A stretch of DNA of 64,000 nucleotides, taken from contig CAISJI010000159.1 of the NCBI GenBank assembly GCA_903885565.1, positions 10,514 to 74,513 of the forward strand, written 5' to 3'. Source of the stretch: an uncultured Planctomycetaceae bacterium. GTDB taxonomy: Bacteria > Planctomycetota > Planctomycetia > Pirellulales > UBA1268. The position numbers and the translations under genes are program-made. The notes below the pieces were generated by a model, which made no database searches, was not told the origin of the DNA, and worked only from the letters and a program-made list of their open reading frames with translations. Below are positions 34,583 to 59,841 of this stretch, piece after piece (within the stretch, counting starts at the first letter, position 1; every line of letters starts with the position of its first letter).

Positions 34583-34784
34583 ACTGGCAACTCGGGAAGG
34601 GTGCGCGGAGGGACCAAAACAGATCCGGACCAAGCGCCAAACAAAACGGTCGGCGGCAGGGGCACCGCCCGCTCCAAGTCTACACAATCAGCGGAAAGGG
34701 CGGATATACTCATCTGTTTGCCCACCCGCTCCTCCGCTCCACATGCCCCGTGACTTGAGTGACGGGCCGCCCCGGAAGTCTGCC

Positions 34785-36329: not shown

Positions 36330-36332
36330 AGG

Positions 36333-36680
36333 CTATATCGCCTCGCGACCGCGTTCGCCGGTCCGGATGCGAACGCATTCATCCATCGGCAGCACGAAAA
36401 TCTTGCCGTCGCCGATCTCGCCGCGCTCGCCGCTGCGGCCTCCCTTGATGATTGCCGCAATGGTCGGCTCGACGAAATCGTCGTTGACGGCAATCTGCAA
36501 CTGCACCTTCCGCAGGAGGTTCACGGCGATCTCGTGGCCGCGAAACGTCTCCGCGTGCCCGCGTTGCCGGCCGAAGCCCTGCACGTCGAGCACCGTCAGG
36601 CGAAACACCTCAACCTCTGAGAGGGCCTGCTTGACGCTTTCCAGTTTGCCAGGCTGGATGATGGCAATGATGAGTTTCAC
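36333..36680 (-). CDS. glnK: P-II nitrogen regulatory protein (GlnK-type by linkage to amt)
   Basis: GTG 36680 with GGAGG upstream. (M)KLIIAIIQPGKLESVKQAL...GFGRQRGHAETFRGHEI...GDGKIFVLPMDECVRIRTGE aligns without gaps to E. coli GlnB/GlnK. TAG 36333-36335 lies 3 nt from the convergent leuA stop. Confidence 0.9.
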   Translation of the reverse strand: MKLIIAIIQPGKLESVKQALSEVEVFRLTVLDVQGFGRQRGHAETFRGHEIAVNLLRKVQLQIAVNDDFVEPTIAAIIKGGRSGERGEIGDGKIFVLPMDECVRIRTGERGREAI

Positions 36681-36993
36681 GGATGCGACCTCCTCGAGTC
36701 TGCCGGATCGTAGCGGCAGAGGGGGGGTCGCCACAACCAACCCCTATTGTACACACACTCGTTCTGCTGGTTCCCTCTGTTTTGGCCGACCCTCAGCCAC
36801 AGCAGCCCGATCGATCGCATTTTTCCCCGCACCATCCCGAAGAATGCCCCGGCCTGGGTGAGCTAGGCGGAGTGCCCACCCAAGCCGTTGGGGCATCCTT
36901 CTGGATGATCGGCCGAACGTCAGGGATACCCGGTGGAGTGTGTGCAACAAGGTGATAAAAAACCGGGGTCCCTGACGATCGACGTGGGCAAAA

Positions 36994-38574
36994 CTATTCG
37001 TTGCGGACCATCACGAAGCCGTGGTAGGCCTCGTTGCCGTGTTCGTGGATATCGAGGCCCTCAATCTCCTCCTGAGCACTCACACGCAGGCCGACCAAGA
37101 ACTTGATGAGCAGCCATGCCACTGCCGAAACCGGCACGACGTAAGCCCCCACCATCAGCACACCCACCAGCTGGGCGATGAGCTGCTTGGTGCCGCCTCC
37201 GAAAAACAGACCGGCATAGGGACCACCGGCAGCGGCAGTACCGAACGGCGTGTTGAGCACAGTTCCGGAGAGATCAGTCGTGGAGAACAGGCCCACGCAA
37301 AGCGTGCCGAAGATGCCGCACACCAGATGCACGCTGGTCGCTCCCACCGGATCATCCACACCGATCCGATCGAAGAACAGCACGGCGAAGATCACCATCA
37401 CACCGGCAATCGCCCCGATGATCAGCGAGCAGGGCACCGTGGTGTAGGCGGCACAGGCCGTGATCGACACCAGTCCGGCCAGACAGCCGTTGAGAGTCAT
37501 GCCGATGTCGGGCTTTCCGAGCATGATCCACGCGGTGAGCGTGGCAGTCAGCGTGGCAGCGGCAGCAGCCGAGTTGGTGTTGACGGCCACCAGCGCCGCC
37601 AGAGCCCCGCCGTCACCAGCCACACCCATCGTGCTGCCGGGATTGAATCCAAACCAGCCGAACCACAGCACCAGGCAGCCGATGAAGGCAGCCGTCATGT
37701 TGTGACCAGGGATGGCATTGATCTTCCCGTTCGGACCATATTTCCCGATGCGTGGGCCCAGAATGATGGCCCCCGTCAAAGCCGCCCAGCCGCCCACCGA
37801 ATGCACCACCGAGCAGCCGGCAAAGTCCCAGAAATTCCATTCCTTGGCGAGGTAGCCGAAGCCCCATATCCAGTGGCCGACGATCGGGTAGATCACCAAC
37901 GCCATGATGAAGCAGAAGATGATGAACGCGTGATACTTGATCCGCTCGGCAACAGCCCCCGACACGATCGTCGCGGCAGTCCCGGCAAACACAAGCTGGA
38001 AGAAGAACTTGGCCCACAGCGGCACGTGCGTCCAACTGATCGCCCCGTAGACACCTTGGTAGCGGTCGCCCATGAACGGACTGTTGTCAGCGCCGCCGAC
38101 ACCCCATGAGCCGGAGTTGCCAACCCAGCCACCATCCCCGGCACCGAACATCAGATCCCAGCCCAAGAACCAGAAAGCGACCGATGTGGCAGCAAAGACG
38201 ACGAAGTTCTTGGAGAGGATGTTGACGCAGTTCTTGGAGCGGGCGAAGCCGGTTTCCACGCAGCCGAACCCGAGGTTCATGAAGAATACCAACATGCTGC
38301 AGACCAACACCCAGACGGTGTCTGCTCCAGTCCAGAGCTTCTCAACCATCTGCTCCATCGACATAAGATTGGGCTGATACGGCGCGGCCGCCGCCGCAGT
38401 CGCAGCCGCGACCGCTTCCTCCTGCGCGAAACCGACCCCCGAAAACAGCGTGCCGACGCAGACGCAGGCAAGCAAGCCCGCCACAGCCATCAGCCGCGAC
38501 CGGGACGACGCGCGGGGAGATGGTTTGGGGTGCAAAAAGAGATACCGACCAACAGAACAGCTTTCAGATCGCAT
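36994..38574 (-). CDS. amt: Ammonium transporter (Amt family) with a signal peptide
   Basis: The Amt signature DFAGCSVVHSVGGWAALTGAIILGPRIGKY is present with ~11 TM segments. ATG 38574 was chosen; ATG 38490 (MAVAGLLACVCVG...) is an alternative. The track extension to 38838 looks non-coding. Confidence 0.9.
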   Translation of the reverse strand: MRSESCSVGRYLFLHPKPSPRASSRSRLMAVAGLLACVCVGTLFSGVGFAQEEAVAAATAAAAAPYQPNLMSMEQMVEKLWTGADTVWVLVCSMLVFFMNLGFGCVETGFARSKNCVNILSKNFVVFAATSVAFWFLGWDLMFGAGDGGWVGNSGSWGVGGADNSPFMGDRYQGVYGAISWTHVPLWAKFFFQLVFAGTAATIVSGAVAERIKYHAFIIFCFIMALVIYPIVGHWIWGFGYLAKEWNFWDFAGCSVVHSVGGWAALTGAIILGPRIGKYGPNGKINAIPGHNMTAAFIGCLVLWFGWFGFNPGSTMGVAGDGGALAALVAVNTNSAAAAATLTATLTAWIMLGKPDIGMTLNGCLAGLVSITACAAYTTVPCSLIIGAIAGVMVIFAVLFFDRIGVDDPVGATSVHLVCGIFGTLCVGLFSTTDLSGTVLNTPFGTAAAGGPYAGLFFGGGTKQLIAQLVGVLMVGAYVVPVSAVAWLLIKFLVGLRVSAQEEIEGLDIHEHGNEAYHGFVMVRNE

Positions 38575-38679
38575 CGTGCTCCTCCAGAAGGGGAAGGGGA
38601 AAAGATCCGGCGAGAAACGCCTCCGCAGCGTCGGACTCACCGGGCGGCAGAATCTTCTAACCGCACCCTTGCCCTGCAA

Positions 38680-38695
38680 TGCAAGGGACGTGCCG
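38680..38695 (-). promoter_or_regulatory. Sigma-54 (RpoN) -24/-12 promoter upstream of amt: CGGCACGTCCCTTGCA
   Basis: The minus-strand read of 38695..38680 matches the consensus TGGCACG-N4-TTGCA at 15 of 16 positions, with the exact GG-N10-GC spacing. It lies ~105 nt upstream of ATG 38574. GGCAC half-sites cluster 130-195 nt further upstream (38823-38890). Confidence 0.55.
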
Positions 38696-39134
38696 AAACG
38701 CAGGAAACACTTCTCAACCGCCGCTTCTCCACCGCCGCCACCAGCTGATTCACCTATAAAAACAGGCCGATTTGGCCATGAATGAAAGCTCAGAAAAAAA
38801 TCGCGTTCGGGGGCTTTCCCGAGGCGTGCCCACTCCAATCACCTGCGGAGGCACAGTTTTGAGGCACGCGATTGCCCAGCAAAGCGGCACGCCCCCCGCC
38901 ACTGGGGAAACCATCTCCCACGGCGCAGCCTCCCGCTCAACCAGATCCGCTCCGCTACGCCTTCCAACTCATGTGAGCGCATGGGGGAGAACTTGAGCGA
39001 CACCTCGGCATCTCGGGTGGGAGAGGCGAAGGGGTCGGAGAACGCTTGAGGAGCGTCGGGCCGCTGCGGCCCAAGCGACGAAACTTTTGCCGCCCCGCAG
39101 CCGGCGCGCCATGGATGTCGACCGCGTTTGAGAG

Positions 39135-39935
39135 TCAGGTGGAAGTGGGCCTCACTCCGACGGTATTCCAGAGCCGGCTGCCGCTCAAGCAAACGGGGGC
39201 GTGGAGACTGACGAGCCTGCCGGTGGCGGGGTGCGGAAATTCCAGGCGGCTGGCATGGAGGCAGAGTCTGCCGGCGTCGCCGAATGCAGCCGGCGGGGCG
39301 TGCGGTGCCGGCGGATCAGCGCTGAACTGAGCGGCAGCAGCCGAACTGCTGTAGAGGTGATCACCCAGAATCGGAGCGCCCAGCCAGGCGAGGTGGGCCC
39401 GGAGCTGGTGCGATCGACCTGTCACCGGCTCCAATTCCACCAGCGACCAGCCGCCGGAAATGCTGCTGGACAGAGCGTCAGTGGCGGTCGCAATCACCTG
39501 CCAGCGGGAGATCGCCGGCCGCCCCAGAATCGGATCGATCCGCTGGCGGGGCGGCAACCCTGGATCGGCCGCCAGCGGCAGGTGGATCGTGCCGGCCGGC
39601 CGCGGCAGCCGGCCCTGCACCACCGCCAGATAGCGTTTGCGCACCTGCCGCCGCTCAAATGCCAGCCCCAGGGCTCCCCGGGCGGCCCGGGAGCGGGCCA
39701 GCACGAGCAGCCCGGAAGTATCGCGGTCGAGCCGATGCGCCGCCTCCAACAGCCCCCCTTCCTCCCCGGCGAATTCCGGCAGCGTGCGCAGAACCCGGGC
39801 CACATCGGGGGGATCGAGCGGCGTCCGCGCCGGCACGCTCGGCATGCCCGCTGGTTTTTCCACCACGACGATCTGGTCGTCGATCAGCACCACACGCAGG
39901 TGGCCAGCAATTATTGCGTGGCTGCTTTCTCTCAC
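39135..39935 (-). CDS. RluA-family pseudouridine synthase
   Basis: HRLDRDTSGLLVLARS (catalytic Asp motif) and LHASRLEFPHPATG are present. The GTG start at 39935 overlaps the upstream TGA (GTGA at 39932-39935). TGA 39135-39137. Confidence 0.85.
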   Translation of the reverse strand: MRESSHAIIAGHLRVVLIDDQIVVVEKPAGMPSVPARTPLDPPDVARVLRTLPEFAGEEGGLLEAAHRLDRDTSGLLVLARSRAARGALGLAFERRQVRKRYLAVVQGRLPRPAGTIHLPLAADPGLPPRQRIDPILGRPAISRWQVIATATDALSSSISGGWSLVELEPVTGRSHQLRAHLAWLGAPILGDHLYSSSAAAAQFSADPPAPHAPPAAFGDAGRLCLHASRLEFPHPATGRLVSLHAPVCLSGSRLWNTVGVRPTST

Positions 39936-42064
39936 AGCACGCCGAGCGACTCCACCCAGGAGCAGAGCGTTTCGGCTGGCACCTGCTCGAGCGCAGCAGG
40001 GGGCAACATGCCCACCGGATAGCCAGCCTCCTCCAACCGCCGGGAATCGAGCTCCAACCGGGGAACGGGCTGACCACCGCTGGTTCCAAAGAGCACCACG
40101 CGGCTGCGGCCCGGCTCAGCCGCTTCCACCGTGGCCTGCCGGGGCAGGCCAGCGTTGAACAGGGCCACTCCCCGCACGCCCGGCCCCAGAGCCTCCGCCG
40201 CCAGCCAAGCCATGGCGGCGCCGGCGCCACTCCCGGCGAAGGCAACTCGGGAAAGGTCTATTGGCCGCCGTTGCCGCAGCGAATCGAGGGCCCGCGCCAC
40301 GCCGGCGATATCTTCTCGGCCCCAGCGCTGCGGATCGGAGGGCTCAGGCAGGATCACTGCCACCCCATAGCGCGAGGCCGCCGCGGCCCACTGCGCCGAG
40401 GCAGCCCGCACCGCCTCGGTCTCAGCCGCCGCGCGAGCGGCCCCGGTGGCCGCCCCCTGCGGAGATCCAAAATAGACCAGCACCCCCAACGGCGTGCCCA
40501 GCGGCGACTCAGGCGCGGCTGCCGGCAGCACTGCCAGCGGCGGGTGAGCGATCTCCGGAGCGGGAAGTTTTTCCACCACTGCCTGCGCGGGATCGGCCTC
40601 GGAGACGGGCACCAATTCGGGCACCGTGGCAGGCGCCACCACGGTGGCCATCTCCAACTCAAGCGGGAGGCCGTCTCGGCGCACCGTCACCTGCACCACC
40701 GTCCCCGCCGCCAGCCCGCCGACAAAGCCGGCCAGAGCGCCGGCGTTTGAAACCTCCAGCCGCTCTCCACCGCCAGAGCTCCCCGCTTCCCCTGCGGCAG
40801 CGACTGTCGCCACCGCCTCGACGGAGTCACCGGCCACCAGCCCCGCCTGCGCGGCCGGCCCGGCGGGCCACACCCAGGCCACAGGTACACCCGGGGTCTC
40901 GCCCGCATTCTCGCCCTTTTTGTTCGCTGTGCGTGTGGGCACGATCCCCAGCACCGATCGCCGCCAAGGGGCGAGCGCGGCCACCAGTTCGACCCGCAGC
41001 GGCACGCGCACCTTCCCCCCGTCGGCAGAGCCGCGCTCCACCACCAGTTCGACGGAGTCGCCGGCATAGAGTGGGGCCAGCACATGCCGCAGTTCGGCCA
41101 CGCGGGCGATGCTCCGCCCTCCAGCCTCCACGATCGTGTCTCCAGCACGCAGCCCTGCCCGTGCCGCTGGCGAACCGGCCCGGCAGGTGGCCACCGTTGC
41201 TTTGGACGTGAAGGGATCGCGAGCAGAATAGCCAATCCCCAGAATTCCCGGGCTGAGCGTCTCCCCCTGCTGCAGCCGCGGCAGCACCCGCAGCAGATCT
41301 ACCAGGGGCACAGCGAAGCCGATCCCTGAGTCGTAGAGCTCAGTTCCCATCGTCATGCCAGCAGTGTCGGCAGGCACTGGGGCCAGGATGCCGATCACCC
41401 TCCCCTGAATGTCGATCAGCGGCCCGCCGTAGTTGGCAGGAGAGACAGAGGCATCGGTCTGCACAGCCTTGCCCCAGGCCCGATTCATCGCCGAGAGGAT
41501 CCCCACCGCCACACTCGGAGCCGAGCTGTTCCACGCCCGTCCCAAGGCGATCGTCCACTGTCCCACCCCCCACGACTCCCGCGGCGCGACCGCCAGGGAT
41601 GGCAGGGGCGCGGCAGCGGCGGGGACTTCGATCTGGAGCAGCACCAGTCCGCGGGCGAGATCCCGCCCCACGGCCCGGGCCACAACACGCGTGCCACCGG
41701 GTGTGCCTGGCAGCACCACGATCGCCTGCTTGGCATCCTTGGGGACGGCAAACGAGGTGGTCACCACCCAGCCCGCCGGATCAACAATCAGGCCGGACGA
41801 TGGCCCCGCTGCGGGAGCTGCCTCGGCCGGGCCGCCGATGCTCGCCTCCGAGACACCCGCCGCTTCGATCCGCACCACCGCCGCTGCCACCCGGTCGACC
41901 GCCGTGCGAAAGGCCTGCTCTTCGGCCGCCGCCACCGACCACTCCGCCGCGGGCTGCCCCACCGTCTGCCGAGCACTGGCCACAAACAATAGACAACAGG
42001 CAACGCAGCACATCTCGGCGATCCAGCGGCCCCTGCTCCAGATTCCCGGCAGGACGATTCTCAT
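39932..42064 (-). CDS. S1C (HtrA)-like pseudoprotease with all three triad positions substituted, two PDZ domains and a C-terminal alpha/beta-hydrolase-like domain
   Basis: ATG 42064 (ATGA overlap). Aligned by hand to the intact neighbour: His motif TNFHVV becomes TTSFAV, Asp motif GDVALIKL becomes RGLVLLQI, Ser motif GNSGGAL becomes ANYGGPL. PDZ-like blocks are SPAARAGLRAGDTIVEAGG and GPAAQAGLVAGDSVEAV. The C-terminus has VAFAGSGAGAAMAW (nucleophile-elbow-like). Confidence 0.7.
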   Translation of the reverse strand: MRIVLPGIWSRGRWIAEMCCVACCLLFVASARQTVGQPAAEWSVAAAEEQAFRTAVDRVAAAVVRIEAAGVSEASIGGPAEAAPAAGPSSGLIVDPAGWVVTTSFAVPKDAKQAIVVLPGTPGGTRVVARAVGRDLARGLVLLQIEVPAAAAPLPSLAVAPRESWGVGQWTIALGRAWNSSAPSVAVGILSAMNRAWGKAVQTDASVSPANYGGPLIDIQGRVIGILAPVPADTAGMTMGTELYDSGIGFAVPLVDLLRVLPRLQQGETLSPGILGIGYSARDPFTSKATVATCRAGSPAARAGLRAGDTIVEAGGRSIARVAELRHVLAPLYAGDSVELVVERGSADGGKVRVPLRVELVAALAPWRRSVLGIVPTRTANKKGENAGETPGVPVAWVWPAGPAAQAGLVAGDSVEAVATVAAAGEAGSSGGGERLEVSNAGALAGFVGGLAAGTVVQVTVRRDGLPLELEMATVVAPATVPELVPVSEADPAQAVVEKLPAPEIAHPPLAVLPAAAPESPLGTPLGVLVYFGSPQGAATGAARAAAETEAVRAASAQWAAAASRYGVAVILPEPSDPQRWGREDIAGVARALDSLRQRRPIDLSRVAFAGSGAGAAMAWLAAEALGPGVRGVALFNAGLPRQATVEAAEPGRSRVVLFGTSGGQPVPRLELDSRRLEEAGYPVGMLPPAALEQVPAETLCSWVESLGVL

Positions 42065-43128
42065 GGTTTCCTCGACAGTGCAGGACGCGGCCCCAATCCA
42101 CATTCCACAATGCTTCCCTCGCGCACCACGGTGAACTGCACCCGATCGCCGGTTGCCAGTTCCGCAAGAATGTGCTGCACTCCGGTCCGCGATGAGACCG
42201 AGCGACCGTTGACCGCCACCACCAGATCATCGGTGCGCAGGCCTGCTGCGGCAGCTGCGGAGCCGCTCCGCACCGACTCGACAAACGGCGGGGTTCTGTC
42301 GAGCAGATCGGGCACGAACACCACTCCCAACAGCTGCGGATCAAAGCGCATCGCCACCGAATCAAGCGCCGCTTCAGCCGTGGGTGTCGGACTGGTCCCC
42401 TGCCCCGCGAGCACGCTGCGGTAGCCCTGCTCAACCTCATCCACCGGCAACGCGTAGTTGAGCCAGATGCCGCTGGTGGTCGCCCGCAATTCCTTCCCCA
42501 GCATGCCGAGCAGTCGCCCGCGCCAATCGACGACGGCACCGCCAGCCGACCCAGGATTGTTGGTGGTGCAGTCGAGGATATAGACATCTCCGCGATAGGG
42601 TGCCTCGTGAGCCCCCCGCCGCGCATCCAGCGGCACCACTCCCGACACCACTCCATGCTGCACGCTCACCCGTTCATCCCCCACGGCGACTCCGAAGAGA
42701 TTCGAGAGGGCGAACACGCGCGTGCCCGGCGCCACACGGGGAAGCTGCTCCCAGGAAAAGGCCGGCAGATCCTCCCCCTGAATCGAGAGCACCGCCAGTT
42801 CCCGCAGCGGATCGCAGCCGAGGAGGGTGGCCGAATAGCGGCGGCCATCATCCAGCACGCAGTCGATCTCGTCGGAGTCCAGCACCGTGCTCTGCACCGT
42901 CACCACATGCCCTGCGGCAGAGACGAGAATGCCGGTCTGATAGGCCTCCAGGCCCCGCACTCCCCCGGCCCCATAGAGCTTCACCACGCAGCGGGCACTC
43001 CCGGCGATCGTCTGCTCAGGACTCACCGGCGGCGCGGCGCTGACGGCAGCCCCCACCACCAGCCAGCCCAGCAGCAGGCCGCAGCAGATGCCGCTCACAC
43101 TGCCCGATCGTTTTCCTGTCTGCATCAT
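42061..43128 (-). CDS. S1C (HtrA)-like protein with a degenerate triad (Ser/Glu/Ala at the His/Asp/Ser positions) plus one PDZ domain
   Basis: ATG 43128 (MMQTGKRS..., ATGA overlap), signal/anchor ICCGLLLGWLVVGAAVSA. TVQSTV stands at the His motif, RELAVLSI at the Asp motif, and NPGSAGGAV at the Ser motif (the Ser is shifted one residue N-terminal). PDZ block: AAAAGLRTDDLVVAVNG. Confidence 0.7.
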   Translation of the reverse strand: MMQTGKRSGSVSGICCGLLLGWLVVGAAVSAAPPVSPEQTIAGSARCVVKLYGAGGVRGLEAYQTGILVSAAGHVVTVQSTVLDSDEIDCVLDDGRRYSATLLGCDPLRELAVLSIQGEDLPAFSWEQLPRVAPGTRVFALSNLFGVAVGDERVSVQHGVVSGVVPLDARRGAHEAPYRGDVYILDCTTNNPGSAGGAVVDWRGRLLGMLGKELRATTSGIWLNYALPVDEVEQGYRSVLAGQGTSPTPTAEAALDSVAMRFDPQLLGVVFVPDLLDRTPPFVESVRSGSAAAAAGLRTDDLVVAVNGRSVSSRTGVQHILAELATGDRVQFTVVREGSIVECGLGPRPALSRKP

Positions 43129-45032
43129 GTCTCTCCTGGAGCTTCCACAGGCCGCGGGACCTCCCCGGCTGAATCGGCAGGGCTGTCGGCCTGCGGCGCC
43201 GCTGCCTGCACACTGGCCGCTTCGATGTGGAACACACCAAAGAGTCTGTCGCCGTGACGGGCCTCGATCCGTGCCGGCCATCCCGCCGGGATGCCGGAGA
43301 TCGGCAGCGCTTGCGCGAAGGTGAGTTCGCAGGGATCGGCATCGGGTGCGGTCCACAGATCGATCGCTGCCACAGCACCGCTGGGCGTTACGGAAACCCT
43401 CGTCTCCACCGCCGCTACGGCGGTCTCCAGGACATCGATCAACACCGGTTCCGCGCCGCTGATCAGGGCCGCCGGGTCGAGCGGTGCGGTGCCCCAGTAG
43501 CTGGTGCGTCCCAGAGCTGTGGGTCCCTCCAGCACCAGCCGGCGCCACACGATCAGCGCCGCCAGCATTCCGCCGCTGCCGGGCGGACTCGGATTGGCGT
43601 CGAGATCACCGCTGGCATCCACCGAGGTGGTGCCGGTGGGCAGATCGATGGTGGCGCGGCTATCGGCCAATTCGATACGAAATGGCTCGCCGCTGCCCAG
43701 GTGGCCCGCCATCACCCAGGTGCCGCGCCCAGGATCGGCGTGCCCGGCAGCCACACTCCGGGCCACGCGCGACAACTCCACCGTGTTGAAGTGGTAGTTG
43801 GTGAAGCCGGGACGGGCTTCGTACACCTCCTTCACGGCCGCGGAGAGCTGGTTGGGGGCGGGATGGGCAGGCGGTTCGGGTTTCTCCTCCGCTGGCTGGG
43901 GCGCTGCGGGGGGGCCGGGGCGTGGACGACGGGTCTGCTTGGAATTTTCCCCCGCCACGATAGAAGCCAGTTCGGCGGCAGAATGCACCCCCGCCAGCCG
44001 CACCAGAATCTCATAGCGGCGTCCCTGACGGCGATAGACCAACGGCACCCGCCACCCTGCAGGCAGCGTGCCCAGAACATTTTTCAGCGCGTTGACGGTG
44101 CGCACCGTGCGGCCGGCAATCGACACGATCTCGTCGTCGTAACGCAAACCACGCCGGTAGGCATCGGAGGAGTCCAGAATGTCAGACACCACCACCCGCC
44201 CATCCTCGGCTGTCGCCGCGGTCGCACCGAGCGTGGCGTGATCGACCAGCCTTCCCCCCTTGAGGCAGCCGAGGAAGTGCCGCAGCTGGTTGGCAGAAAT
44301 GGCATAGCCCACTCCCACATTCACCCGCCCCCGCTTCTCAAACGAAGCCCGGCCGTTGACGCCGATGATGCGTCCCTGGGCATCGAAGAGTGCTCCGCCG
44401 GAATTCCCCGGATTGATGGCGGCATCCACCTGCAGGCAATCGGCATATTCCAGGATCGTGCCGGCAGGAAACTGGTAGCGATGAACCCCCGACACGATGC
44501 CGGCGCTGATCGAGGGATGGAAGTCGGTGGCCAGCAGGAACGGATTGCCCGCCGCAAAACAGAAATCCCCCACCTCCACGGTGTCGCTGTCGGCCAGTGC
44601 GGCATAGGGGAAATCATCCCGCCCCAGCAATTTGATCAGCGCCACATCGCCGGTCGGATCGAGCCCCACAAGCACCGCTTCATACTGCCGGCCGTCCGCC
44701 AGACCGCACTGCATTGCCACGCCCGCCGGCTGCACCACATGAAAGTTTGTCAGGGCGTAGCCATCCGCACTGATCAGCACGCCGGAACCCCCGCCCGCCT
44801 CACCGGCGAAGATGGCCACCGCCGCCTGCGACGCCCGCGCGATCACTTCAATCCGCTGTTGCTGCGCCGCGAGCACCTCCGGCGCCACGTCCGCTCCGTT
44901 GGCCGGCGGCCCAGCCGGCTCGGCAAACGCCGCCGAGATCACGAGCAACCAGCCGGAAATGCATGCCGGCGCACACCAAAGCAGGCGGAGAACACCCCTC
45001 GGACGGGATCGTTGGGCGATTGTTTGTTTCAT
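43125..45032 (-). CDS. HtrA/DegP-family serine protease (intact triad) with a PDZ domain and a ~280-aa C-terminal extension
   Basis: ATG 45032 (ATGA overlap). Signal peptide LLWCAPACISGWLLVISAAFA. GGSGVLISADGYALTNFHVV (His), GDVALIKL (Asp), NPGNSGGALFDAQGRIIGVNG (Ser). PDZ block: GRVVVSDILDSSDAYRRGLRYDDEIVSIAG. Confidence 0.8.
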   Translation of the reverse strand: MKQTIAQRSRPRGVLRLLWCAPACISGWLLVISAAFAEPAGPPANGADVAPEVLAAQQQRIEVIARASQAAVAIFAGEAGGGSGVLISADGYALTNFHVVQPAGVAMQCGLADGRQYEAVLVGLDPTGDVALIKLLGRDDFPYAALADSDTVEVGDFCFAAGNPFLLATDFHPSISAGIVSGVHRYQFPAGTILEYADCLQVDAAINPGNSGGALFDAQGRIIGVNGRASFEKRGRVNVGVGYAISANQLRHFLGCLKGGRLVDHATLGATAATAEDGRVVVSDILDSSDAYRRGLRYDDEIVSIAGRTVRTVNALKNVLGTLPAGWRVPLVYRRQGRRYEILVRLAGVHSAAELASIVAGENSKQTRRPRPGPPAAPQPAEEKPEPPAHPAPNQLSAAVKEVYEARPGFTNYHFNTVELSRVARSVAAGHADPGRGTWVMAGHLGSGEPFRIELADSRATIDLPTGTTSVDASGDLDANPSPPGSGGMLAALIVWRRLVLEGPTALGRTSYWGTAPLDPAALISGAEPVLIDVLETAVAAVETRVSVTPSGAVAAIDLWTAPDADPCELTFAQALPISGIPAGWPARIEARHGDRLFGVFHIEAASVQAAAPQADSPADSAGEVPRPVEAPGET

Positions 45033-46357
45033 TTTTCGATGACCGGTGTGGTGAATCGCACGGGGCTGCCCAGATCTCCGCTTGTGCCGTAATCGACCGT
45101 CACCGTCAGACGCCTGGCGCCAGCAATTTCCAACTCAATCGGCAGTCCCTCCCCCACCCCATCGATGGGAAACACACCGGCATCGATCTCGCGTCGGAAG
45201 GCCTCGGAGTCGTCGACTGAGATTGTCACCAGCGTCTTCCCCGCCGCCATCCGCCCCGCCGCCGGGGCCACCACGGTGCGGAATCGCCGACTGTCGGCCG
45301 GCACGCGCCACACTGCCACGGTGCGGGGCCGCACCACGAGCCCCTCCCGGGGAAATTCGCCGGCAGCCACCACCGGCCGGGGCGCAAAATAGGGGGCAAA
45401 CCCCGGCAACGCGGCGAGGGAACCAAAGTAGGGCTCCACCTCCAGCCGTTCCGGCGGCAGACCAGTCAGCGCCAGCGTGCGATCGGCGGCAAAGTCGATC
45501 CTGGCCAGCAGGGGCGCCGGCACGCGCACAACGTCATCCAGCACCAAGCCGGTCGGCGTCCAAACCACTTTTCCAGCCCGCAGACTCCCGCCGTCAACAT
45601 CGACCACGATTCCCCGTGGAGCCTGGTTGGTCGCCTGAGCACGCAGCCACTGAAGCCCGATGATCTTTGCTCGCTTGACGGCGATCGTCTCATCATCGAG
45701 CAGAACGGTGACGGTTTCGGGAGACACAGCCGTTATCGCGCACTCCACAAACTCATGGGCCGCGGGAGTACCGACCACCAGGAGATCGCTCTCGGTCGCC
45801 TCCGGAACCGCCGTCTGCCAGCCCGATCCTCCGCTCCAGTCGAGGGTGTGGAGCCGCTCCGCCGGAACCTCGATTGGCCCATCAGGCGTAATCAAGAGGG
45901 CCTGCTTGCCATCCCAGGAAAAATCGTCTGCCTCAAGCGTTGATCCATCAATCCATGTCGACCGCAGCGCGGCAGGCTTGGCTGGCAGGACAGCCGCGCC
46001 ACTGCGTGTCACGACGCGCACCTGATCCAGTGGCAGCACCAGATCCTGTCCGGCAGAGGCAAGAGCCACCCCGTCGGCACCGATTCGCGCAAGCGGGCCC
46101 GAGAGCATGGTGCCATCGGTGCGTTCCACGCGAAAGGTTCCCGCCCCCCCCGCTTCACTTACCACAGCCACCGGTTCGGCAGCGGCCGCCCGCCCAGCCG
46201 AGCCAATCACCAAGAAGGCAAGCACGAAGCCGCTCAGCACAAAAAAGTCTGGCACACAGAGGAGCCGTCCCGCCCGCCGGCCGCGCCAGCAGCGGCCCAA
46301 CGAAAACATCCACTCCGGCGCAGAGAGCCACCGGTCAACCGAGCGAAAGAAGTGCAT
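45029..46357 (-). CDS. Membrane-anchored hypothetical protein (442 aa) with a C-terminal NPCBM-like beta-sandwich (tentative)
   Basis: ATG 46357. TM segment FFVLSGFVLAFLVIGSAG. The C-terminal RRFRTVVAPAAG...LVTISVDDSEAF...PIELEIAGARRLTVTVDYGTSGDLGSPVRFTTPVIEK resembles the NPCBM/NEW2 pattern as I recall it. Confidence 0.5.
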   Translation of the reverse strand: MHFFRSVDRWLSAPEWMFSLGRCWRGRRAGRLLCVPDFFVLSGFVLAFLVIGSAGRAAAAEPVAVVSEAGGAGTFRVERTDGTMLSGPLARIGADGVALASAGQDLVLPLDQVRVVTRSGAAVLPAKPAALRSTWIDGSTLEADDFSWDGKQALLITPDGPIEVPAERLHTLDWSGGSGWQTAVPEATESDLLVVGTPAAHEFVECAITAVSPETVTVLLDDETIAVKRAKIIGLQWLRAQATNQAPRGIVVDVDGGSLRAGKVVWTPTGLVLDDVVRVPAPLLARIDFAADRTLALTGLPPERLEVEPYFGSLAALPGFAPYFAPRPVVAAGEFPREGLVVRPRTVAVWRVPADSRRFRTVVAPAAGRMAAGKTLVTISVDDSEAFRREIDAGVFPIDGVGEGLPIELEIAGARRLTVTVDYGTSGDLGSPVRFTTPVIEK

Positions 46358-46377: not shown

Positions 46378-47610
46378 TTAGGGGGTCTGTTCACCGGTCG
46401 CCAGACGCTTGAAGTATTGCTCAATCGCTTCCCGGTAGTGGGCCGGATATTCCCGGCCGATCTGCTGGAGCGCCTCTTCGCGCTGATGAGGAGGCAGGTT
46501 GCCCCAGCCGCCGGAATCGCCAATGTCGCGCGGCGTGACATCTCCCGGCCCCTTGCCGTCGGCGAGGCGACTGTCGTCCATCGGCTTGCCGTTGCCCCCC
46601 TTGCCCGTGCCCGCACCCCCGGCGCTCCCCGCCTGTGACTCCTGCTGCTTTTCGATGGCAGCGATCATTTTGTCGAGAGATTCGATCACGCCATCCTGTA
46701 CCTGGCGCGTGCCGGGGCCAGCTCGCCCCAGCCCCAGGCGTCTGGTGATGTCGCGCATGCGGCGTGCAATGTGATCAAGCGATTCATCCTCCAGCGACTT
46801 GATATCGGCCCGCAGCAACCGGGCCACCTGCTCATAGCGCACCGGAATCTCACCCGTGCGTTCCAACAGCCGTTCGAGCGATTCCAGCGCCAGATCACCT
46901 TTCAGCAGCCAGTGCTGGCAGGCGGCACGATGGAAGAAGAGCGACGCAGGATCGATGGCGGTGGCCGGATCGAGGTCGCCGATGATCGCCAGCCCCTCGT
47001 CATAGCGTTCCAGCCGCACCCACTCCCTCCCCAGCCAGAGTTTCACAGCGTCCCGTTCCCATGGATCGGTGGCTGGATCGGCCCACCAGAGCGTCGCTGC
47101 GGCCGATCCTTCCGCAGACTCAGCCGCCGCGGCCGCCAGCACACCCACCACGCGCGGGTCGGCGACGGCCAGCGCGGCGACCACCGCATCGAGCAGATCG
47201 CTGCCGGGCGCAGCGGAGCGTTCGTCCCATACTTCAGCGGCCCGCTGCCGATCGGCAGCAGACACTGGCGTTCGGGCAATCCATTCGGCTACCTGCCGTC
47301 CCACCGCTTCGCGCGTGGGGATTGACCATGTCGGCTGCCGGGCCAGTTCGCTCTCCGCAGCCTCCGCGCCAGAGGCCACGCCCGCCGCAGCGGGCTGATC
47401 GGCATCTCCTGCCAGCGGCATCGCCGGCACTTCCACTCCGGCGTTGCAGAAAGCCACCGCCAGCAGGCTGTGAATCAGGTGCAACAGCAGCCGATGCGCT
47501 GCCCGTCGACCGTGGCAATCCTCGGCGGTCCCACCGTTTACGAAAGTGGAAAAAGTGCCGGGATCACTTTTTCCACGGGCAGCTAATTCTTCGGCACCGC
47601 GAATCGGCAT
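46378..47610 (-). CDS. Hypothetical exported protein (~410 aa); C-terminus EYPAHYREAIEQYFKRL
   Basis: The start is uncertain. ATG 47610 has GAGG 10 nt upstream; the track start at 47709 is GTG and the intervening codons have low GC3. A hydrophobic LLLHLIHSLLAVAFCNA segment is present. TAA 46378-46380. Confidence 0.45.
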   Translation of the reverse strand: MPIRGAEELAARGKSDPGTFSTFVNGGTAEDCHGRRAAHRLLLHLIHSLLAVAFCNAGVEVPAMPLAGDADQPAAAGVASGAEAAESELARQPTWSIPTREAVGRQVAEWIARTPVSAADRQRAAEVWDERSAAPGSDLLDAVVAALAVADPRVVGVLAAAAAESAEGSAAATLWWADPATDPWERDAVKLWLGREWVRLERYDEGLAIIGDLDPATAIDPASLFFHRAACQHWLLKGDLALESLERLLERTGEIPVRYEQVARLLRADIKSLEDESLDHIARRMRDITRRLGLGRAGPGTRQVQDGVIESLDKMIAAIEKQQESQAGSAGGAGTGKGGNGKPMDDSRLADGKGPGDVTPRDIGDSGGWGNLPPHQREEALQQIGREYPAHYREAIEQYFKRLATGEQTP

Positions 47611-47767
47611 GGAGGCGAACCTCTGCAGAGTGACCAGACACAATAGCCACTCGCTTTTCGCATGCGCATGGCCCCAATCCATCATACCCGCGAGCCTGTC
47701 GCCGGGCACAGCGTTCGCCCCCGCCGACCACTTTTGGCCCGGGGACTGGCGAGAGCGAAGCCCAGGA

Positions 47768-49624
47768 TCATTCCGTCAGGCCGCTGACAATCCCATGGGC
47801 GGCCCGTTCTATCTTTCGCTGCCGGTCTGACAGACGCCGCACGGCGTCGAGCAATTCCGGCTCATCCGCCTGCTCCGCCCCCTCGGTCAAGAGCTGGGAA
47901 AATCGCTTGGTGCGGGTATTCACCCGCATCTGCAGCGAGCGGATCATCTTCAGTTCGGACAGTTTGTCGACGAGCGGTTGCTCCCCCGGCTCGGCGGGGC
48001 GTCCGCCGGCCGCCCCCTTCTGCCGCGCCTGCTGCTGCCGCTGCGCCTTCTCAAGGGCCGCGAGCATCTCTTCCAGATTGGCCACGATGTCTTGAACGAT
48101 ACCGCGCGTCGTCGCCCCGGCATCCCCCCTGCCGAGCCGGCCTGCTGCCGCAGCGGCATCGTCGCGCACCTGCTCGAGGGCCTCGGGGATGGCCACGGCA
48201 GATCCGTCATCGCGCACCAGCGTCAGAGCCTTTGTGGCATCGAGGCCGACCGCTGCCTGCTCCCGTCCCAGCCTGACTGCCTCCAACTGCTGTTGCCGAT
48301 CTTCTGCAGGAGGCGGTTCGGCGGAGAGTTTTTCCACCCCGGCCAAGACTCCCTTTTCTACCCGCAACATCCCGCGCAGCCGGGCCTCGAGTTGCACCAG
48401 CAAGCGTTCCACTTCCTGCTCGCGCATCTGGCGCAGGATCTCCTCCAACTCGGCCCGCGCCGTTTCCAATTCCTCGATCGCCTTCTCCTGCTCCTTCCGC
48501 GCGTCGCGACGCTGCGATTTTTCAATTTTCTGCTCAGCCTCGCGCATCCGCTTCTCGGCCGCCTCCAAGCGGCTCTTGCTGCGCTTTGCCCGGGAGGATT
48601 CGTCGTCTCCCTCCGGCTGGTCGGCTGCTTCCGCCTCAGATGGCTCCGGCATCTCTTCAGCCGGCTGCTGGGGAGCAGCCTCCCCCTCGCTCCCTTCGCC
48701 GGCCCCTGCAGATTTCCCCGGCTGCCCGGCCGGGGCATCCCCCGGCGGCGTCTTGCCCCCTTCGCCCTGAGGCGCTGGGTCGCCACCCGCGGCCGGTTCT
48801 TTCGGTTTGTTTTCGCCAGCGGCTGGCGGGGTGTCGCCAGCGGGCGGCGCGTTGTCGTCAGCGTTCTGAGGCGCTGGGGCCGGCTGTTCTTCCGGTTTCT
48901 TCTCCCCCTGCGGCTGGCTGTCGGCAGGCTGGCCGCCTTCAGCGGCTTCGGGGGGGGCATCGGTCGCTTCCATCCGTTTGGAAAAACTCCCGATGTCCCG
49001 CGAGAGGCCGCTGGTCTCTTCGGCGAGCGCATCCTGCCGCTGTGCCAAGCCCTCCTCCTGAGCCCCCGACTCCGTCGATCCCTCAATGTCGCGTTGCCGC
49101 GCCATGATCTTGGAGAGCCGCGAGAGGAACTGCCGCACCTCTTCTTTGGTGTTGGCTAGCCGCCGGTCGGTGTCACCCGATTCGAGCAACTGGAGCAGTT
49201 CGCGCAGCCGGTCGAGTGTTGATGCCTGGGTGGTGCCCGCCTTGAGCAACTGCCCCTGTTCGAGCAACTGCACGATCGTATCGAGCCGGTTTCCCACCTC
49301 CTGGCTGCGGGCCTGCTCAAACACATTCCGCAACAGCGTCGCCCGGCGTGGATCGCTGGGAGCCAGCAGATCGGCCAAGCGCAGAAATGTGCGTTCCAAT
49401 TCGCGAAACTGATTGAGCAGCTCCTGCTCCCGCTGCGCTAAAACAGCCGGGGCGCCAGTGGCAGGAACCGCTGGCGCAGGCTCTTCAGCCAACGCGATCC
49501 CCAGTGCCCCAGGCGACACCATCGCCAACAGCACGAACAGGCTGTGGATCGAGTGCCCAGCGGCGGGGCGCCGGCCGCAGGTCGGGCGGGTCGATTTGGC
49601 TGGCGGGGGGAAGGAACGTGTCAT
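47768..49624 (-). CDS. Secreted coiled-coil protein with a long acidic Pro/Glu/Ala-rich disordered centre (618 aa)
   Basis: ATG 49624 overlaps the upstream TGA (ATGA). Signal-like SIHSLFVLLAMVSPGALGIALAEEP. Heptad-like helical stretches flank ~150 aa of E/P/A/G/Q low complexity. Confidence 0.55.
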   Translation of the reverse strand: MTRSFPPPAKSTRPTCGRRPAAGHSIHSLFVLLAMVSPGALGIALAEEPAPAVPATGAPAVLAQREQELLNQFRELERTFLRLADLLAPSDPRRATLLRNVFEQARSQEVGNRLDTIVQLLEQGQLLKAGTTQASTLDRLRELLQLLESGDTDRRLANTKEEVRQFLSRLSKIMARQRDIEGSTESGAQEEGLAQRQDALAEETSGLSRDIGSFSKRMEATDAPPEAAEGGQPADSQPQGEKKPEEQPAPAPQNADDNAPPAGDTPPAAGENKPKEPAAGGDPAPQGEGGKTPPGDAPAGQPGKSAGAGEGSEGEAAPQQPAEEMPEPSEAEAADQPEGDDESSRAKRSKSRLEAAEKRMREAEQKIEKSQRRDARKEQEKAIEELETARAELEEILRQMREQEVERLLVQLEARLRGMLRVEKGVLAGVEKLSAEPPPAEDRQQQLEAVRLGREQAAVGLDATKALTLVRDDGSAVAIPEALEQVRDDAAAAAGRLGRGDAGATTRGIVQDIVANLEEMLAALEKAQRQQQARQKGAAGGRPAEPGEQPLVDKLSELKMIRSLQMRVNTRTKRFSQLLTEGAEQADEPELLDAVRRLSDRQRKIERAAHGIVSGLTE

Positions 49625-54395: not shown

Positions 54396-54428
54396 GGAAG
54401 TGGACAGCGTCCGGGGGGCCGGGGGAGA

Positions 54429-56729: not shown

Positions 56730-57621
56730 GGCGGAAATCCTCGGCTACACGGCCATGCTGGAGCGGCGGGACAAAAATTGAACCAGCGCCGCATCGACCG
56801 GCTCGCCGGTGCGGATCAGGGAATAGTCGCAGGAGGCGGCCGCACACCGCCGCCGGGCCTCGGCGAGGAAGGCCTCCAAGGCTGCCAGATATCCTGCCCG
56901 CAGCGCCCGGGGATTGCAGGCGAGGTGATCGGGGATTTCCAGCCCTTCAAACCGGGTGGGGCCATCGAACGGAAAGGTGAGTTCGTCGTCATCCATCACG
57001 TGCAGGAGCACGAGATCGTGGCCGCGTTTCCGCAGCAGTTGCATCCCCTGAAACATTCCCTCCCGATCGCCGAGCAGATCGGAGATGAGAACCACCAACC
57101 CGCGCCGCGGGAGCGTCTCCGAGAGCGTCTTGAGCACCGGCAGAAAGGCTGTGGCCCGCCCCTTGCTCGCCTCTCCCCGCACCGTTTCGAGCACCTCGAC
57201 AACGCTCGCCAGCTGCGAGCGCTTCGTGCGGGCCGGCACCGCCGCACGCACCTGGCTGTCAAATACTGCGCAGCCGGCAGCATCACCGTGCGACAGCGCC
57301 AGCCAAGCGAGGCTCGCCGCCAGGGTGGCGGCATATTCATACTTCGACAGGCTTCCCGACTTGTAGTCCATGCTCGAAGAGGCATCGACCACCAGCGCCA
57401 GCCGCAGGCTGGTCTCCTCCTCAAATTCCTTGACGTACAGCCTGTCCTGCCGGGCCCACACCTTCCAGTCGACCCGGCGCAGATCATCCCCGCGGACATA
57501 CTCCCGGTGTTGGAGAAATTCCACCGACTGCCCCTTGTAGGGGCTCTTGTGCAATCCGGCGAGCACCCCTTCCACGACAGCCCTGGCACGCAGCTCGAGC
57601 CGCGTGATGCGGGCAATCGCC

Positions 57622-58668
<1,047 letters not shown>

Positions 58669-58718
58669 AAAAGCTCCGGGTGGGGCGGACGGACGACGGC
58701 GGCGGACAGGTTTGCCGC

Positions 58719-59807: not shown

Positions 59808-59841
59808 GAAAAACCGCCTCTGGGAGCCGATGAGAATGAGA

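What the first reader, a model, noticed from the sequence alone, without database searches (positions are those of the whole stretch)
39932..45032. Three tandem, translationally coupled HtrA paralogues: one intact triad, two with all triad positions substituted
I aligned the three S1C domains against each other by hand.

| Gene | His motif | Asp motif | Ser motif |
|---|---|---|---|
| 43125-45032 | TNFHVV | GDVALIKL | GNSGGAL |
| 42061-43128 | TVQSTV (His to Ser) | RELAVLSI (Asp to Glu) | PGSAGGAV (Ser to Ala; a Ser sits one residue earlier) |
| 39932-42064 | TTSFAV (His to Phe) | RGLVLLQI (Asp to Gly) | ANYGGPL (Ser to Tyr) |

All three keep PDZ domains. The last one has two PDZ domains plus an alpha/beta-hydrolase-like C-terminal domain. 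The three genes are joined by ATGA overlaps, which implies stoichiometric co-synthesis.

HtrA proteases work as trimers or higher oligomers. A hetero-oligomer of one active and two dead subunits, or pseudoprotease substrate adaptors, is therefore a concrete hypothesis.
Basis: seen in the sequence. Interest (0 to 1): 0.7.

Follow-up and report, generated by a model that had tools for sequence, protein, structure and literature searches.

The report
One live, two dead HtrA proteases
Three overlapping genes in a planctomycete encode one working HtrA protease and two ancient, conserved relatives that cannot cut protein; in related bacteria the three are sometimes fused into one protein, so they probably act together as one periplasmic machine with a single cutting subunit.

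Summary
On the minus strand, genes A (43125-45032), B (42061-43128) and C (39932-42064) are HtrA/S1C paralogues joined by ATGA overlaps. Alignments to solved DegP/DegQ structures place His/Asp/Ser in A, Ser/Glu/Ala in B and Phe/Gly/Tyr in C.

This is not decay. In 65-82 species-level Planctomycetota genomes the same gene order recurs. A always keeps H/D/S. B has Ser at the His site in 81/82. C has Phe and Tyr in 65/65. The loops around the dead active sites are the most conserved parts of B and C.

- Natural A-B, B-C and A-B-C fusion proteins exist.
- None of about 140 B-type domains aligned at that position, taken from 150 cluster representatives, has the catalytic His.
- The C-terminal alpha/beta-hydrolase domain of C is also dead (nucleophile Ser replaced by an invariant Gly).
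- An unknown upstream gene is ATGA-coupled to A as well.

Best reading: an equal-dose periplasmic complex in which only A cleaves and B and C are PDZ-bearing non-catalytic subunits. Whether it is a mixed ABC trimer or stacked homotrimers is untested. The closest known case is MamE/MamO. I found no published description of this trio.

The parts
43125..45032 (-). Gene A: 635-aa HtrA protease with an intact triad. It has an N-terminal hydrophobic signal/anchor, a protease domain (about residues 62-262), one PDZ and a unique C-terminal domain.
   Evidence: Trypsin_2 E=9e-31 and PDZ_2. Aligns to DegP at E=4e-39 with H98/D129/S211 on the catalytic residues. H/D/S is invariant in 71-74 orthologues.
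44739..44741 (-). A catalytic His98 (CAT). Asp129 is at 44646-44648 and Ser211 at 44400-44402.
43998..44240 (-). A PDZ domain (residues 265-345), with the invariant motif HATLGAT in the carboxylate-binding-loop position.
   Evidence: Pfam PDZ_2 27.8 bits. Invariant columns D264-T271.
43197..43835 (-). A C-terminal domain (residues about 400-612): conserved, beta-rich, with no known relatives.
   Evidence: pLDDT 84-96 over residues 430-610 in the AF2 model. Invariant motifs LPTGT, PPGSGG, WRRL and YWG. No Pfam hit. No PDB profile hit.
42061..43128 (-). Gene B: 355-aa HtrA pseudoprotease with a signal peptide, a dead protease domain and one PDZ.
   Evidence: Trypsin_2 E=8e-19 and PDZ_2 E=2e-11. 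Alignment to DegQ/DegP places S80/E110/A195 at the triad positions. Orthologues are 60-84% identical.
42889..42891 (-). B Ser80 at the catalytic His position. Glu110 (42799-42801) is at the Asp position. Ala195 (42544-42546) is at the nucleophile position, preceded by Ser194 (42547-42549).
   Evidence: In orthologues: Ser 81/82; Glu 74/82; Pro 58, Ala 22, Gln 2. In 150 cluster representatives, no B-type domain that aligns at this position (about 140) has His there.
42094..42342 (-). B PDZ domain (residues 263-345), with invariant G268 and the motif VPDLLDxTPPF.
39932..42064 (-). Gene C: 710-aa HtrA pseudoprotease with a signal peptide, a dead protease domain, PDZ1, PDZ2 and a dead alpha/beta-hydrolase-fold domain.
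   Evidence: Trypsin_2 E=7e-20 and PDZ_2 E=5e-17. Alignment to DegP-like chains. AF2 model with pLDDT 85. Foldseek top hits are DegP/DegQ.
41750..41752 (-). C Phe105 at the catalytic His position. Gly139 (41648-41650) is at the Asp position and Tyr212 (41429-41431) at the nucleophile position.
   Evidence: In orthologues: Phe 65/65, Gly 60/65, Tyr 65/65.
40985..41257 (-). C PDZ1 (residues about 270-360).
   Evidence: Pfam PDZ_2 at residues 274-347. Invariant G273/G276/Y279.
40640..40957 (-). C PDZ2 (residues about 370-475). It is less conserved than PDZ1.
   Evidence: The alignment to PDZ2 of a DegP-like chain reaches residue 416. Model strands and helices at 393-473. Regional conservation 0.49.
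39935..40489 (-). C C-terminal alpha/beta-hydrolase-fold domain (residues 526-710). It lacks the nucleophile: the elbow G611-S612-G613-A614-G615 has the invariant Gly613 (40226-40228) where esterases have Ser.
   Evidence: Beta-alpha-beta topology in the model. Weak hits to Abhydrolase_3, a PHA depolymerase model and PDB esterases, whose GdSaGG/GkSnGG motifs align to GrGaGG. G611/G613/G615 are invariant and the domain has no invariant His.
45029..46357 (-). Gene U1: a 442-aa exported protein of unknown function, ATGA-coupled to A. It is part of the conserved core module.
   Evidence: ATGA overlap. No Pfam or NCBIfam match. Present upstream of A in nearly all related loci, including those without the MoxR genes nearby.
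46378..47709 (-). Gene U2: an unknown protein (the true start is probably downstream of the listed GTG). It is conserved upstream of U1.

Best explanation
This is a conserved periplasmic HtrA module of Planctomycetota.

Components:
- Gene A encodes the only catalytically competent subunit.
- Genes B and C encode ancient paralogues. They have lost the whole Ser-His-Asp triad but keep the chymotrypsin fold, their PDZ domains and, above all, the LD/L1/L2/L3 loops around the former active site.
- C also carries a second PDZ and an esterase-fold domain that has lost its nucleophile, probably an extra binding module.

Proposed working:
- The three proteins are made from overlapping reading frames and exported.
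- They assemble, by inference, into one hetero-oligomeric complex at equal dose.
- A cleaves. B and C act as non-catalytic subunits that bind ligands or substrates through their PDZ domains and dead clefts, and they regulate or target A through the inter-subunit loop contacts that HtrA proteases normally use for allosteric activation.

Shown versus inferred:
- Shown: dead triads, purifying selection, conserved linkage, gene fusions.
- Inferred: physical complex, division of labour, allosteric route.
For: 1. Dead triads. Residue-level alignments to DegP/DegQ.
2. Fixed substitutions. A keeps H/D/S in 71-74 of the orthologues aligned. B has Ser 81/82, Glu 74/82, and Pro/Ala/Gln 82/82 at the nucleophile site. 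C has Phe 65/65, Gly 60/65 and Tyr 65/65.
3. Wider clade. 384 clusters (50% identity) match the B profile at E<=1e-30. In the best 150, no B-type domain that aligns at the His position (about 140) has His there, and only 6 have Ser at the nucleophile position.
4. Selection. B orthologues are 60-84% identical, C 45-63%, A 60-74%. The active-site loops are the most conserved regions of B (0.83-0.95 against 0.70 overall) and of C (0.86-0.92 against 0.62). The glycine of each PDZ binding loop is invariant.
5. Linkage. The order U1-A-B-C recurs in nearly all of about 80 species-level genomes with enough flank. 4-nt or 1-nt start/stop overlaps occur at A-B in 73/77 and at B-C in 60/64.
6. Fusions. 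37 A-B fusions, 2 B-C fusions and 1 complete A-B-C fusion occur among the 150 representatives. The fused A domains keep H/D/S (34/34). Fusions were verified on contigs in the same operon context.
7. Export. All three proteins have one N-terminal hydrophobic segment.
Against: - No direct evidence of a physical complex: no multimer prediction, no proteomics, no biochemistry.
- HtrA proteases characteristically form homotrimers. The only documented HtrA hetero-oligomer, Deg5/Deg8, is built from homotrimers (PMC4877387). A mixed ABC trimer would therefore be unprecedented.
- For the one studied pseudoprotease/protease pair, MamO/MamE, no physical interaction was detected (PMC4794232).
- Fusion proteins could in principle be gene-calling or assembly artefacts. 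This is unlikely given 40 independent clusters and intact long ORFs.
- The complete A-B-C fusion rests on one complete ORF (P0386), plus P0446, which is cut off by a contig end inside its C-like part and was scored only A-B by the domain models.
- Translational coupling does not guarantee 1:1:1 protein levels.
Confidence: 0.6

Rival explanations
1. B and C are independent, non-proteolytic periplasmic chaperones or holdases. They would form homo-oligomeric PDZ-bearing cages, like protease-dead DegP. They would merely be co-regulated with protease A, with no stable complex.
For: HtrA proteins normally homotrimerise, and protease-dead DegP retains chaperone function (established knowledge of DegP). 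PDZ domains and substrate-binding loops are conserved in B and C. Conserved operon linkage alone would be explained by co-regulation.
Against: Repeated independent gene fusions A-B, B-C and A-B-C are hard to explain without physical or functional coupling at fixed stoichiometry. The start/stop overlaps are almost invariant.
Confidence: 0.2
2. B and/or C have been repurposed for a function unrelated to proteolysis by A. Examples are small-molecule or metal binding (as in MamO), or acting as decoys or inhibitors that restrain A.
For: MamO shows that HtrA-fold pseudoproteases can acquire metal binding (PMC4794232). The replacement residues themselves are fixed (Ser and Glu in B; Phe and Tyr in C), which suggests a new constrained site. 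C carries an additional dead esterase-fold domain that could bind a ligand.
Against: No conserved di-histidine motif: B has a single nearly invariant His (H158) and C has no invariant His. There is no transporter domain like that of MamO. The fusions tie B and C to A.
Confidence: 0.12
3. B retains non-canonical catalysis, using Ser194 (one residue before the canonical nucleophile) with Glu110 and Ser80.
For: Ser194 is present in 76/82 close orthologues and Glu110 in 74/82.
Against: In the wider B clade the position before the nucleophile is Ala in 106 of about 150 domains, and the Asp position varies (E, D, Q, G, R). There is no general base at the His position in any member. Pro at the nucleophile position in most orthologues removes an oxyanion-hole NH (plus chymotrypsin-fold mechanism).
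Confidence: 0.03
4. B and C are decaying duplicates (pseudogenes in the making) with no function.
For: Loss of all three catalytic residues.
Against: Intact ORFs. 45-84% identity across dozens of species. Invariant replacement residues. The conserved regions are concentrated in functional loops. More than 1000 homologues.
Confidence: 0.01

Closest known systems
MamE/MamO of magnetotactic bacteria (HtrA protease plus HtrA-family pseudoprotease; Hershey et al. 2016, PMC4794232)
   Same: An active HtrA protease is encoded together with a paralogue whose active site is degenerate. The dead paralogue is retained by selection and promotes proteolysis by the active one through a non-catalytic route. 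That paper also reports independent origins of such pseudoproteases.
   Different: - MamO keeps His and Asp and has Thr for Ser; here all three positions are replaced.
- MamO carries a TauE-like transporter domain and a surface di-histidine metal site. Neither is present here.
- MamO/MamE belong to the magnetosome. Here there are two distinct dead paralogues, both with PDZ domains, in a housekeeping-looking periplasmic operon.
- Gene fusions here argue for direct association, which was not detected for MamE/MamO.
Arabidopsis Deg5/Deg8 thylakoid-lumen complex (reviewed in PMC4877387)
   Same: Two different HtrA paralogues form one hetero-oligomer at 1:1 stoichiometry.
   Different: - Both Deg5 and Deg8 are catalytically active.
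- The complex is made from homotrimers.
- The genes are not linked. Here two of the three partners are dead, and the architecture is unknown.
E. coli DegS/DegP/DegQ (canonical homotrimer-based HtrA proteases)
   Same: Fold, PDZ domains and periplasmic location. The L3 to LD*/L1*/L2* inter-subunit activation loops correspond to the most conserved parts of B and C.
   Different: The canonical enzymes are homo-oligomers of identical active subunits. Here there are three diverged paralogues (about 27-31% identical over the A-B and A-C protease-domain alignments; B-C aligns only over a 37-residue stretch), and only one is active.
Mixed active/inactive paralogue rings in other proteases: cyanobacterial and plastid ClpP/ClpR, plastid FtsH/FtsHi, eukaryotic proteasome beta subunits (from general knowledge, not checked here)
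   Same: Catalytically dead paralogues are obligate structural or regulatory subunits of a protease complex.
   Different: These are different folds and families. No equivalent has been described for HtrA, as far as my searches show.
Hepatocyte growth factor beta-chain and other eukaryotic chymotrypsin-fold pseudoproteases (from memory, not checked here)
   Same: Chymotrypsin fold with the nucleophile Ser replaced by Tyr and the His replaced. The dead cleft region is used for protein binding.
   Different: Eukaryotic S1A family, with no PDZ domains and unrelated biology. This is an analogy only.

Membership tests
HtrA / MEROPS S1C (DegP-DegQ-DegS type) | Chymotrypsin-fold protease domain recognised by the Trypsin_2 and Do-family models | tested here: met
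   All three proteins exceed the Pfam Trypsin_2 cut-off. They are below the full-length TIGR02037 cut-off but match it significantly. The best PDB hits are DegP/DegQ.
HtrA / MEROPS S1C (DegP-DegQ-DegS type) | Catalytic triad His-Asp-Ser | tested here: not met
   Met for A (H98/D129/S211). Not met for B (S/E/A) or C (F/G/Y). This state is fixed in orthologues. B and C are therefore family members by fold and descent but are not peptidases.
HtrA / MEROPS S1C (DegP-DegQ-DegS type) | At least one C-terminal PDZ domain | tested here: met
   Pfam PDZ_2 hits in A, B and C. A second PDZ in C is supported by the alignment and the model.
HtrA / MEROPS S1C (DegP-DegQ-DegS type) | Export signal or membrane anchor (extracytoplasmic location) | tested here: met
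   Each protein has a single N-terminal hydrophobic segment by hydropathy scan. This is a heuristic; no dedicated signal-peptide predictor was available.
HtrA / MEROPS S1C (DegP-DegQ-DegS type) | Trimer as the basic oligomeric unit | not testable with these tools
   Only single-chain prediction was available. Gene fusions indicate association but not its geometry.
MamO-type repurposed HtrA pseudoprotease | Degenerate active site in an HtrA-family domain that is retained by selection next to an active paralogue | tested here: met
MamO-type repurposed HtrA pseudoprotease | Surface di-histidine metal-binding motif | tested here: not met
   B has only one nearly invariant His (H158). C has no invariant His.
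MamO-type repurposed HtrA pseudoprotease | [quoted passage not shown] | tested here: not met
   No such domain was found. The context is MoxR/DUF58/BatA plus unknown genes.
Alpha/beta-hydrolase esterases (C-terminal domain of C) | Alpha/beta-hydrolase fold | tested here: met
   Beta-alpha-beta topology with pLDDT mostly 80-94. Weak but consistent sequence and profile hits to esterases and lipases.
Alpha/beta-hydrolase esterases (C-terminal domain of C) | Nucleophile Ser in the G-x-S-x-G elbow, and a catalytic His | tested here: not met
   Esterase GdSaGG/GkSnGG motifs align to GrGaGG. Gly613 is invariant, and the domain has no invariant His.

The most novel reading that the evidence does not exclude
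A, B and C form an obligate mixed heterotrimer, or a single-chain pseudo-trimer in the fused forms. It would have exactly one active site. The two dead subunits would act as dedicated PDZ-gated allosteric sensors, transmitting through the L3 to LD* loop relay to the single catalytic subunit. This would be the first naturally asymmetric HtrA protease.
Probability: 0.3. Interest if true: 0.85.

Novelty: new variant of a known kind. Interest (0 to 1): 0.66.

Why it matters
- **Challenge to the HtrA paradigm.** HtrA proteases are the textbook case of homotrimeric, allosterically activated quality-control proteases. A conserved natural system with one live and two dead paralogues would show that the family can also work as an asymmetric hetero-oligomer. 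Here the three parts are made at matched dose and are fused in some lineages.
- **Natural model for subunit communication.** Inter-subunit communication has so far been probed with engineered mixed trimers. This system would give a natural one.
- **Annotation errors.** Thousands of database entries labelled 'serine protease Do' or 'S1C family serine protease' cannot be proteases.
- **Uncharacterised envelope module.** The trio, plus unknown proteins and often MoxR/VWA/BatA genes, is an uncharacterised envelope module in Planctomycetota, whose cell-envelope biology is poorly understood.
- **Caveat.** Everything beyond sequence conservation and gene fusion is inference until tested biochemically.

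Tried and rejected
- **Decaying pseudogenes.** Rejected on conservation.
- **Non-canonical nucleophile Ser194 in B.** Rejected because this Ser is Ala in most of the wider clade and no base is present.
- **MamO-like di-His metal site.** No conserved His pair.
- **Link to MoxR-vWA conflict systems.** The MoxR here is a standard AAA_3 type. The trio also occurs without MoxR genes nearby. I therefore did not treat the trio as an effector of that system.
- **Foldseek on whole models.** It returned only HtrA structures, so the extra domains could not be searched by fold.
- **C-terminal domain of A.** No Pfam hit and no PDB hit, even with a profile. The AF2 model of A has low confidence in its protease domain (pLDDT 64 overall).
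- **U1-U4.** No Pfam or NCBIfam family, even at permissive E-values. A weak DUF4175 mark appears on the U3 equivalent in one related locus.
- **Promoter/terminator scan.** Uninformative.
- **Literature.** Searches found no description of this trio.
- **Multimer prediction.** Not available.
Full report
**1. Observation**

The window has about 66% G+C. It carries a long minus-strand gene array.

All three exceed the Pfam Trypsin_2 threshold and have PDZ hits. All three match the Do-family and DegS/DegP/DegQ NCBIfam models significantly, though below the equivalog cut-offs.

The gene junctions read ATGA at 43125-43128 and at 42061-42064. Two further overlaps were not in the finding:
- ATGA at 45029-45032 joins an upstream 442-aa ORF (U1) to A.
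- GTGA at 39932-39935 joins C to an RluA-type pseudouridine synthase gene.

**2. Catalytic residues**

Residue-by-residue phmmer alignments to solved HtrA structures gave the following.

| Protein | His-site region | Asp-site region | Ser-site region | Result |
|---|---|---|---|---|
| A | gyaltnfHvv / gyvvtnnHvv | dptgDvalikl / dprsDialiqi | npgnSggalf / nrgnSggalv | H98/D129/S211 intact |
| B | ghvvtvqStv / gyivtnnHvv | dplrElavlsi / dpktDlavikie | npgsAgga / npgnSgga | S80/E110/A195, with Ser194 one position early |
| C | gwvvttsFav / gyiltnnHvv | rGlvllqie / sDvavlkie | spanYggpl / nrgnSggal | F105/G139/Y212 |

Each cell shows the window protein first and the solved HtrA second. The refutation criterion (a profile or structure alignment that restores His, Asp and Ser in B or C) is not met.

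**3. Conservation and distribution**

Homologue searches:
- B has more than 1200 homologues at E<=1e-10. The best 120 are 63-100% identical and are annotated 'serine protease Do' or 'S1C family serine protease' from Planctomycetota.
- C homologues are 53-63% identical over the full length, with the same architecture.
- A homologues are 60-74% identical.

A scan of one genome per species found 187 genomes with a B relative. The best 80 are all planctomycete MAGs, mostly labelled Pirellulales, Planctomycetia or Planctomycetaceae. A few carry implausible bin labels.

In those loci the order U4-U3-U2-U1-A-B-C-RluA recurs wherever the contig is long enough (gene tables). In one lineage only U2-U1-A-B-C-RluA is kept, with unrelated genes upstream. 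The core module is therefore U2-U1-A-B-C and not the MoxR/DUF58/BatA/VWA genes that precede it in the window.

Triad columns across orthologues:

| Protein | His site | Asp site | Ser site |
|---|---|---|---|
| A | H 71/71 | D 71/71 | S 74/74 |
| B | Ser 81/82 | Glu 74/82 | Pro 58, Ala 22, Gln 2 |
| C | Phe 65/65 | Gly 60/65 | Tyr 65/65 |

The replacement residues are thus themselves fixed. Pro at the nucleophile position removes one backbone NH of the oxyanion hole (chymotrypsin-fold mechanism). This is a second, independent reason why B cannot be a serine protease.

**4. Where selection acts**

Per-region conservation shows that the segments homologous to HtrA loops LD, L3, L1 and L2 are the most conserved parts of both dead proteins.
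- B: 0.95, 0.84, 0.91 and 0.83, against 0.70 overall.
- C: L3, L1 and L2 score 0.86-0.92, against 0.62 overall.

In canonical HtrA proteases these loops form the substrate cleft. They also relay activation from the PDZ-sensing L3 loop of one subunit to LD/L1/L2 of its neighbour (established DegS/DegP mechanism).

The PDZ binding-loop glycine is invariant in A, B and C. Together this argues that B and C still bind peptides and/or still talk to neighbouring subunits.

**5. Fusions**

The A homologue list contained 930-971-aa proteins. These proved to be full A followed by full B. One of them sits in the operon as U1-[A-B]-C on two independent metagenome contigs.

A profile of B searched against 1.84 billion cluster representatives found 384 clusters at E<=1e-30. 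I classified the best 150 with family-specific HMMs built from the orthologues:

| Class | Count |
|---|---|
| Stand-alone B | 109 |
| A-B fusions | 37 |
| B-C fusions | 2 |
| Complete A-B-C fusion (P0386, 1071 aa) | 1 |
| Tandem B-B | 1 |

P0446 was scored A-B by the HMMs, but its sequence runs on into a C-like N-terminal stretch before the contig ends. I read it as a second, truncated A-B-C fusion.

In these proteins the A domains keep H/D/S (34/34 fully aligned). About 140 B-type domains align at the His position, and none of them has His there (Ser 108, Gly 13, Asn 10, Thr 7, Ala 4). The two fused C domains that align across the triad carry Phe and Tyr at the His and Ser sites.

Contigs confirm the following:
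- a single 3216-nt ORF for the triple fusion;
- a U1-like gene, an A-B fusion and a C-like gene on a 3.1-Mb contig with no MoxR genes nearby;
- U4-U3-U2-U1-A-[B-C] in another genome.

Named members of these clusters are all Planctomycetota.

The start/stop overlaps are also conserved: A-B 73/77, B-C 60/64, U1-A 36/69.

**6. Extra domains**

The AF2 model of C (pLDDT 85) shows four parts: a protease-like domain, PDZ1, PDZ2 and an alpha/beta-hydrolase-type domain. Foldseek matches DegP/DegQ over about 450 columns.

A profile of the last domain hits PDB esterases and lipases weakly (E 0.007-0.2). It aligns their nucleophile elbows (GdSaGG, GkSnGG) to GrGaGG. Gly613 is invariant, and no His is invariant in the domain. 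C is therefore a double pseudoenzyme.

A has a conserved, confidently folded, beta-rich C-terminal domain (residues about 400-612) with no detectable relatives.

**7. Mechanism**

Shown:
- A is the only paralogue with a catalytic triad.
- B and C are ancient dead paralogues under strong purifying selection, concentrated on the cleft and regulatory loops and on the PDZ domains.
- The three genes are inherited, overlapped and sometimes fused together.
- All three proteins have export-type N-termini.

Inferred:
- They form one periplasmic complex at equal dose.
- A cleaves. B and C are sensor, adaptor or regulatory subunits.
- C brings additional binding modules.

The fusions do not discriminate between a mixed ABC trimer and stacked homotrimers (A3/B3/C3). 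The stacked form is the architecture known for Deg5/Deg8 (PMC4877387). I put about 0.6 on 'one complex with non-catalytic B and C' and about 0.3 on the mixed-trimer version.

**8. Comparison with known systems**

The nearest described case is MamE/MamO. [quoted passage not shown] Pseudoproteases arose independently in three magnetotactic lineages (PMC4794232).

MamO differs in four ways:
- its triad is only partly lost;
- it has a TauE-like transporter domain;
- it has a di-His metal site;
- no interaction with MamE was detected.

Proteolytically inactive Deg homologues have been noted in two cyanobacteria without study (PMC4877387).

My literature searches found nothing on a planctomycete HtrA trio or on HtrA hetero-oligomers with dead subunits. 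The library lacks most subscription-journal papers, so absence is not proof.

**9. Verdict**

The specific heterotrimer model remains untested. I rate this a new variant of a known kind: HtrA-family pseudoproteases working with an active paralogue. Interest is about 0.66.

Noticed in passing
window 45029-46357 (-), and 46378-47709, 47768-49624, 49621-51906 (-): Four exported proteins of unknown function (U1-U4) lie upstream of the trio. U1 is ATGA-coupled to gene A. U2-U1 travel with the trio even where the rest of the operon is absent. None has a Pfam or NCBIfam family; the U3 equivalent in a related locus has a weak DUF4175 mark.
   Followed up: partly
window 39135-39935 (-): An RluA-type RNA pseudouridine synthase gene overlaps the stop codon of C by GTGA. 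This junction has an in-frame GTGA overlap in 30 of 49 related loci. It is an odd, conserved linkage of a cytoplasmic RNA-modifying enzyme to periplasmic proteins.
   Followed up: partly
window 51864-63990 (-): The upstream part of the same strand encodes, in order: a 1382-aa PQQ-type beta-propeller protein, a protein with terpene-cyclase/prenyltransferase-like repeats, a MoxR AAA_3 ATPase, a DUF58 protein, a BatA_N-domain protein and a weak VWA protein. This is a Bat/MoxR-like cluster that is usually, but not always, adjacent to the trio.
   Followed up: partly
window 39935-40489 (-), Gly613 codon at 40226-40228: The C-terminal alpha/beta-hydrolase-fold domain of C has an invariant Gly where esterases have the nucleophile Ser, and it has no conserved His. 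C is therefore a double pseudoenzyme.
   Followed up: yes
window 43197-43835 (-): Protease A carries a conserved, confidently modelled beta-rich C-terminal domain of about 210 aa (motifs LPTGT, PPGSGG, WRRL, YWG). It has no Pfam family and no PDB relative. It is missing from some fused or shorter A homologues.
   Followed up: partly
related proteins P0002-P0360: Public annotations call B and C orthologues 'serine protease Do', 'S1-C subfamily serine protease' or 'S1C family serine protease', although they lack the whole catalytic triad. This is a systematic mis-annotation.
   Followed up: yes
loci L010, L013, L015, L020, L044, L072 and others: Several MAG contigs carrying this Pirellulales-type operon are titled 'Candidatus Kuenenia stuttgartiensis', 'Planctomicrobium piriforme', 'Chitinophaga' or 'Chitinophagaceae'. 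These look like unreliable bin labels.
   Followed up: no
window: B Cys90 and Cys187; A Cys109, Cys158, Cys199, Cys568: Invariant or near-invariant cysteines occur in the periplasmic proteins A and B. One sits in the L1-loop motif LDCTTNNPG of B. They may form disulfides, which are not typical of HtrA protease domains.
   Followed up: no
window 34743-38838: Beyond the RluA gene lie an ammonium transporter (36994-38838, -), a P-II protein (36333-36740, -) and 2-isopropylmalate synthase (34743-36329, +). The ammonium transporter and P-II follow the trio in related loci L001 and L004; the isopropylmalate synthase is seen only in L001.
   Followed up: no
P0474 (1511 aa): One A-B fusion protein continues into a long C-terminal region rich in Ala and Leu repeats (HEAT/armadillo-like in appearance) instead of a C-type domain.
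   Followed up: no
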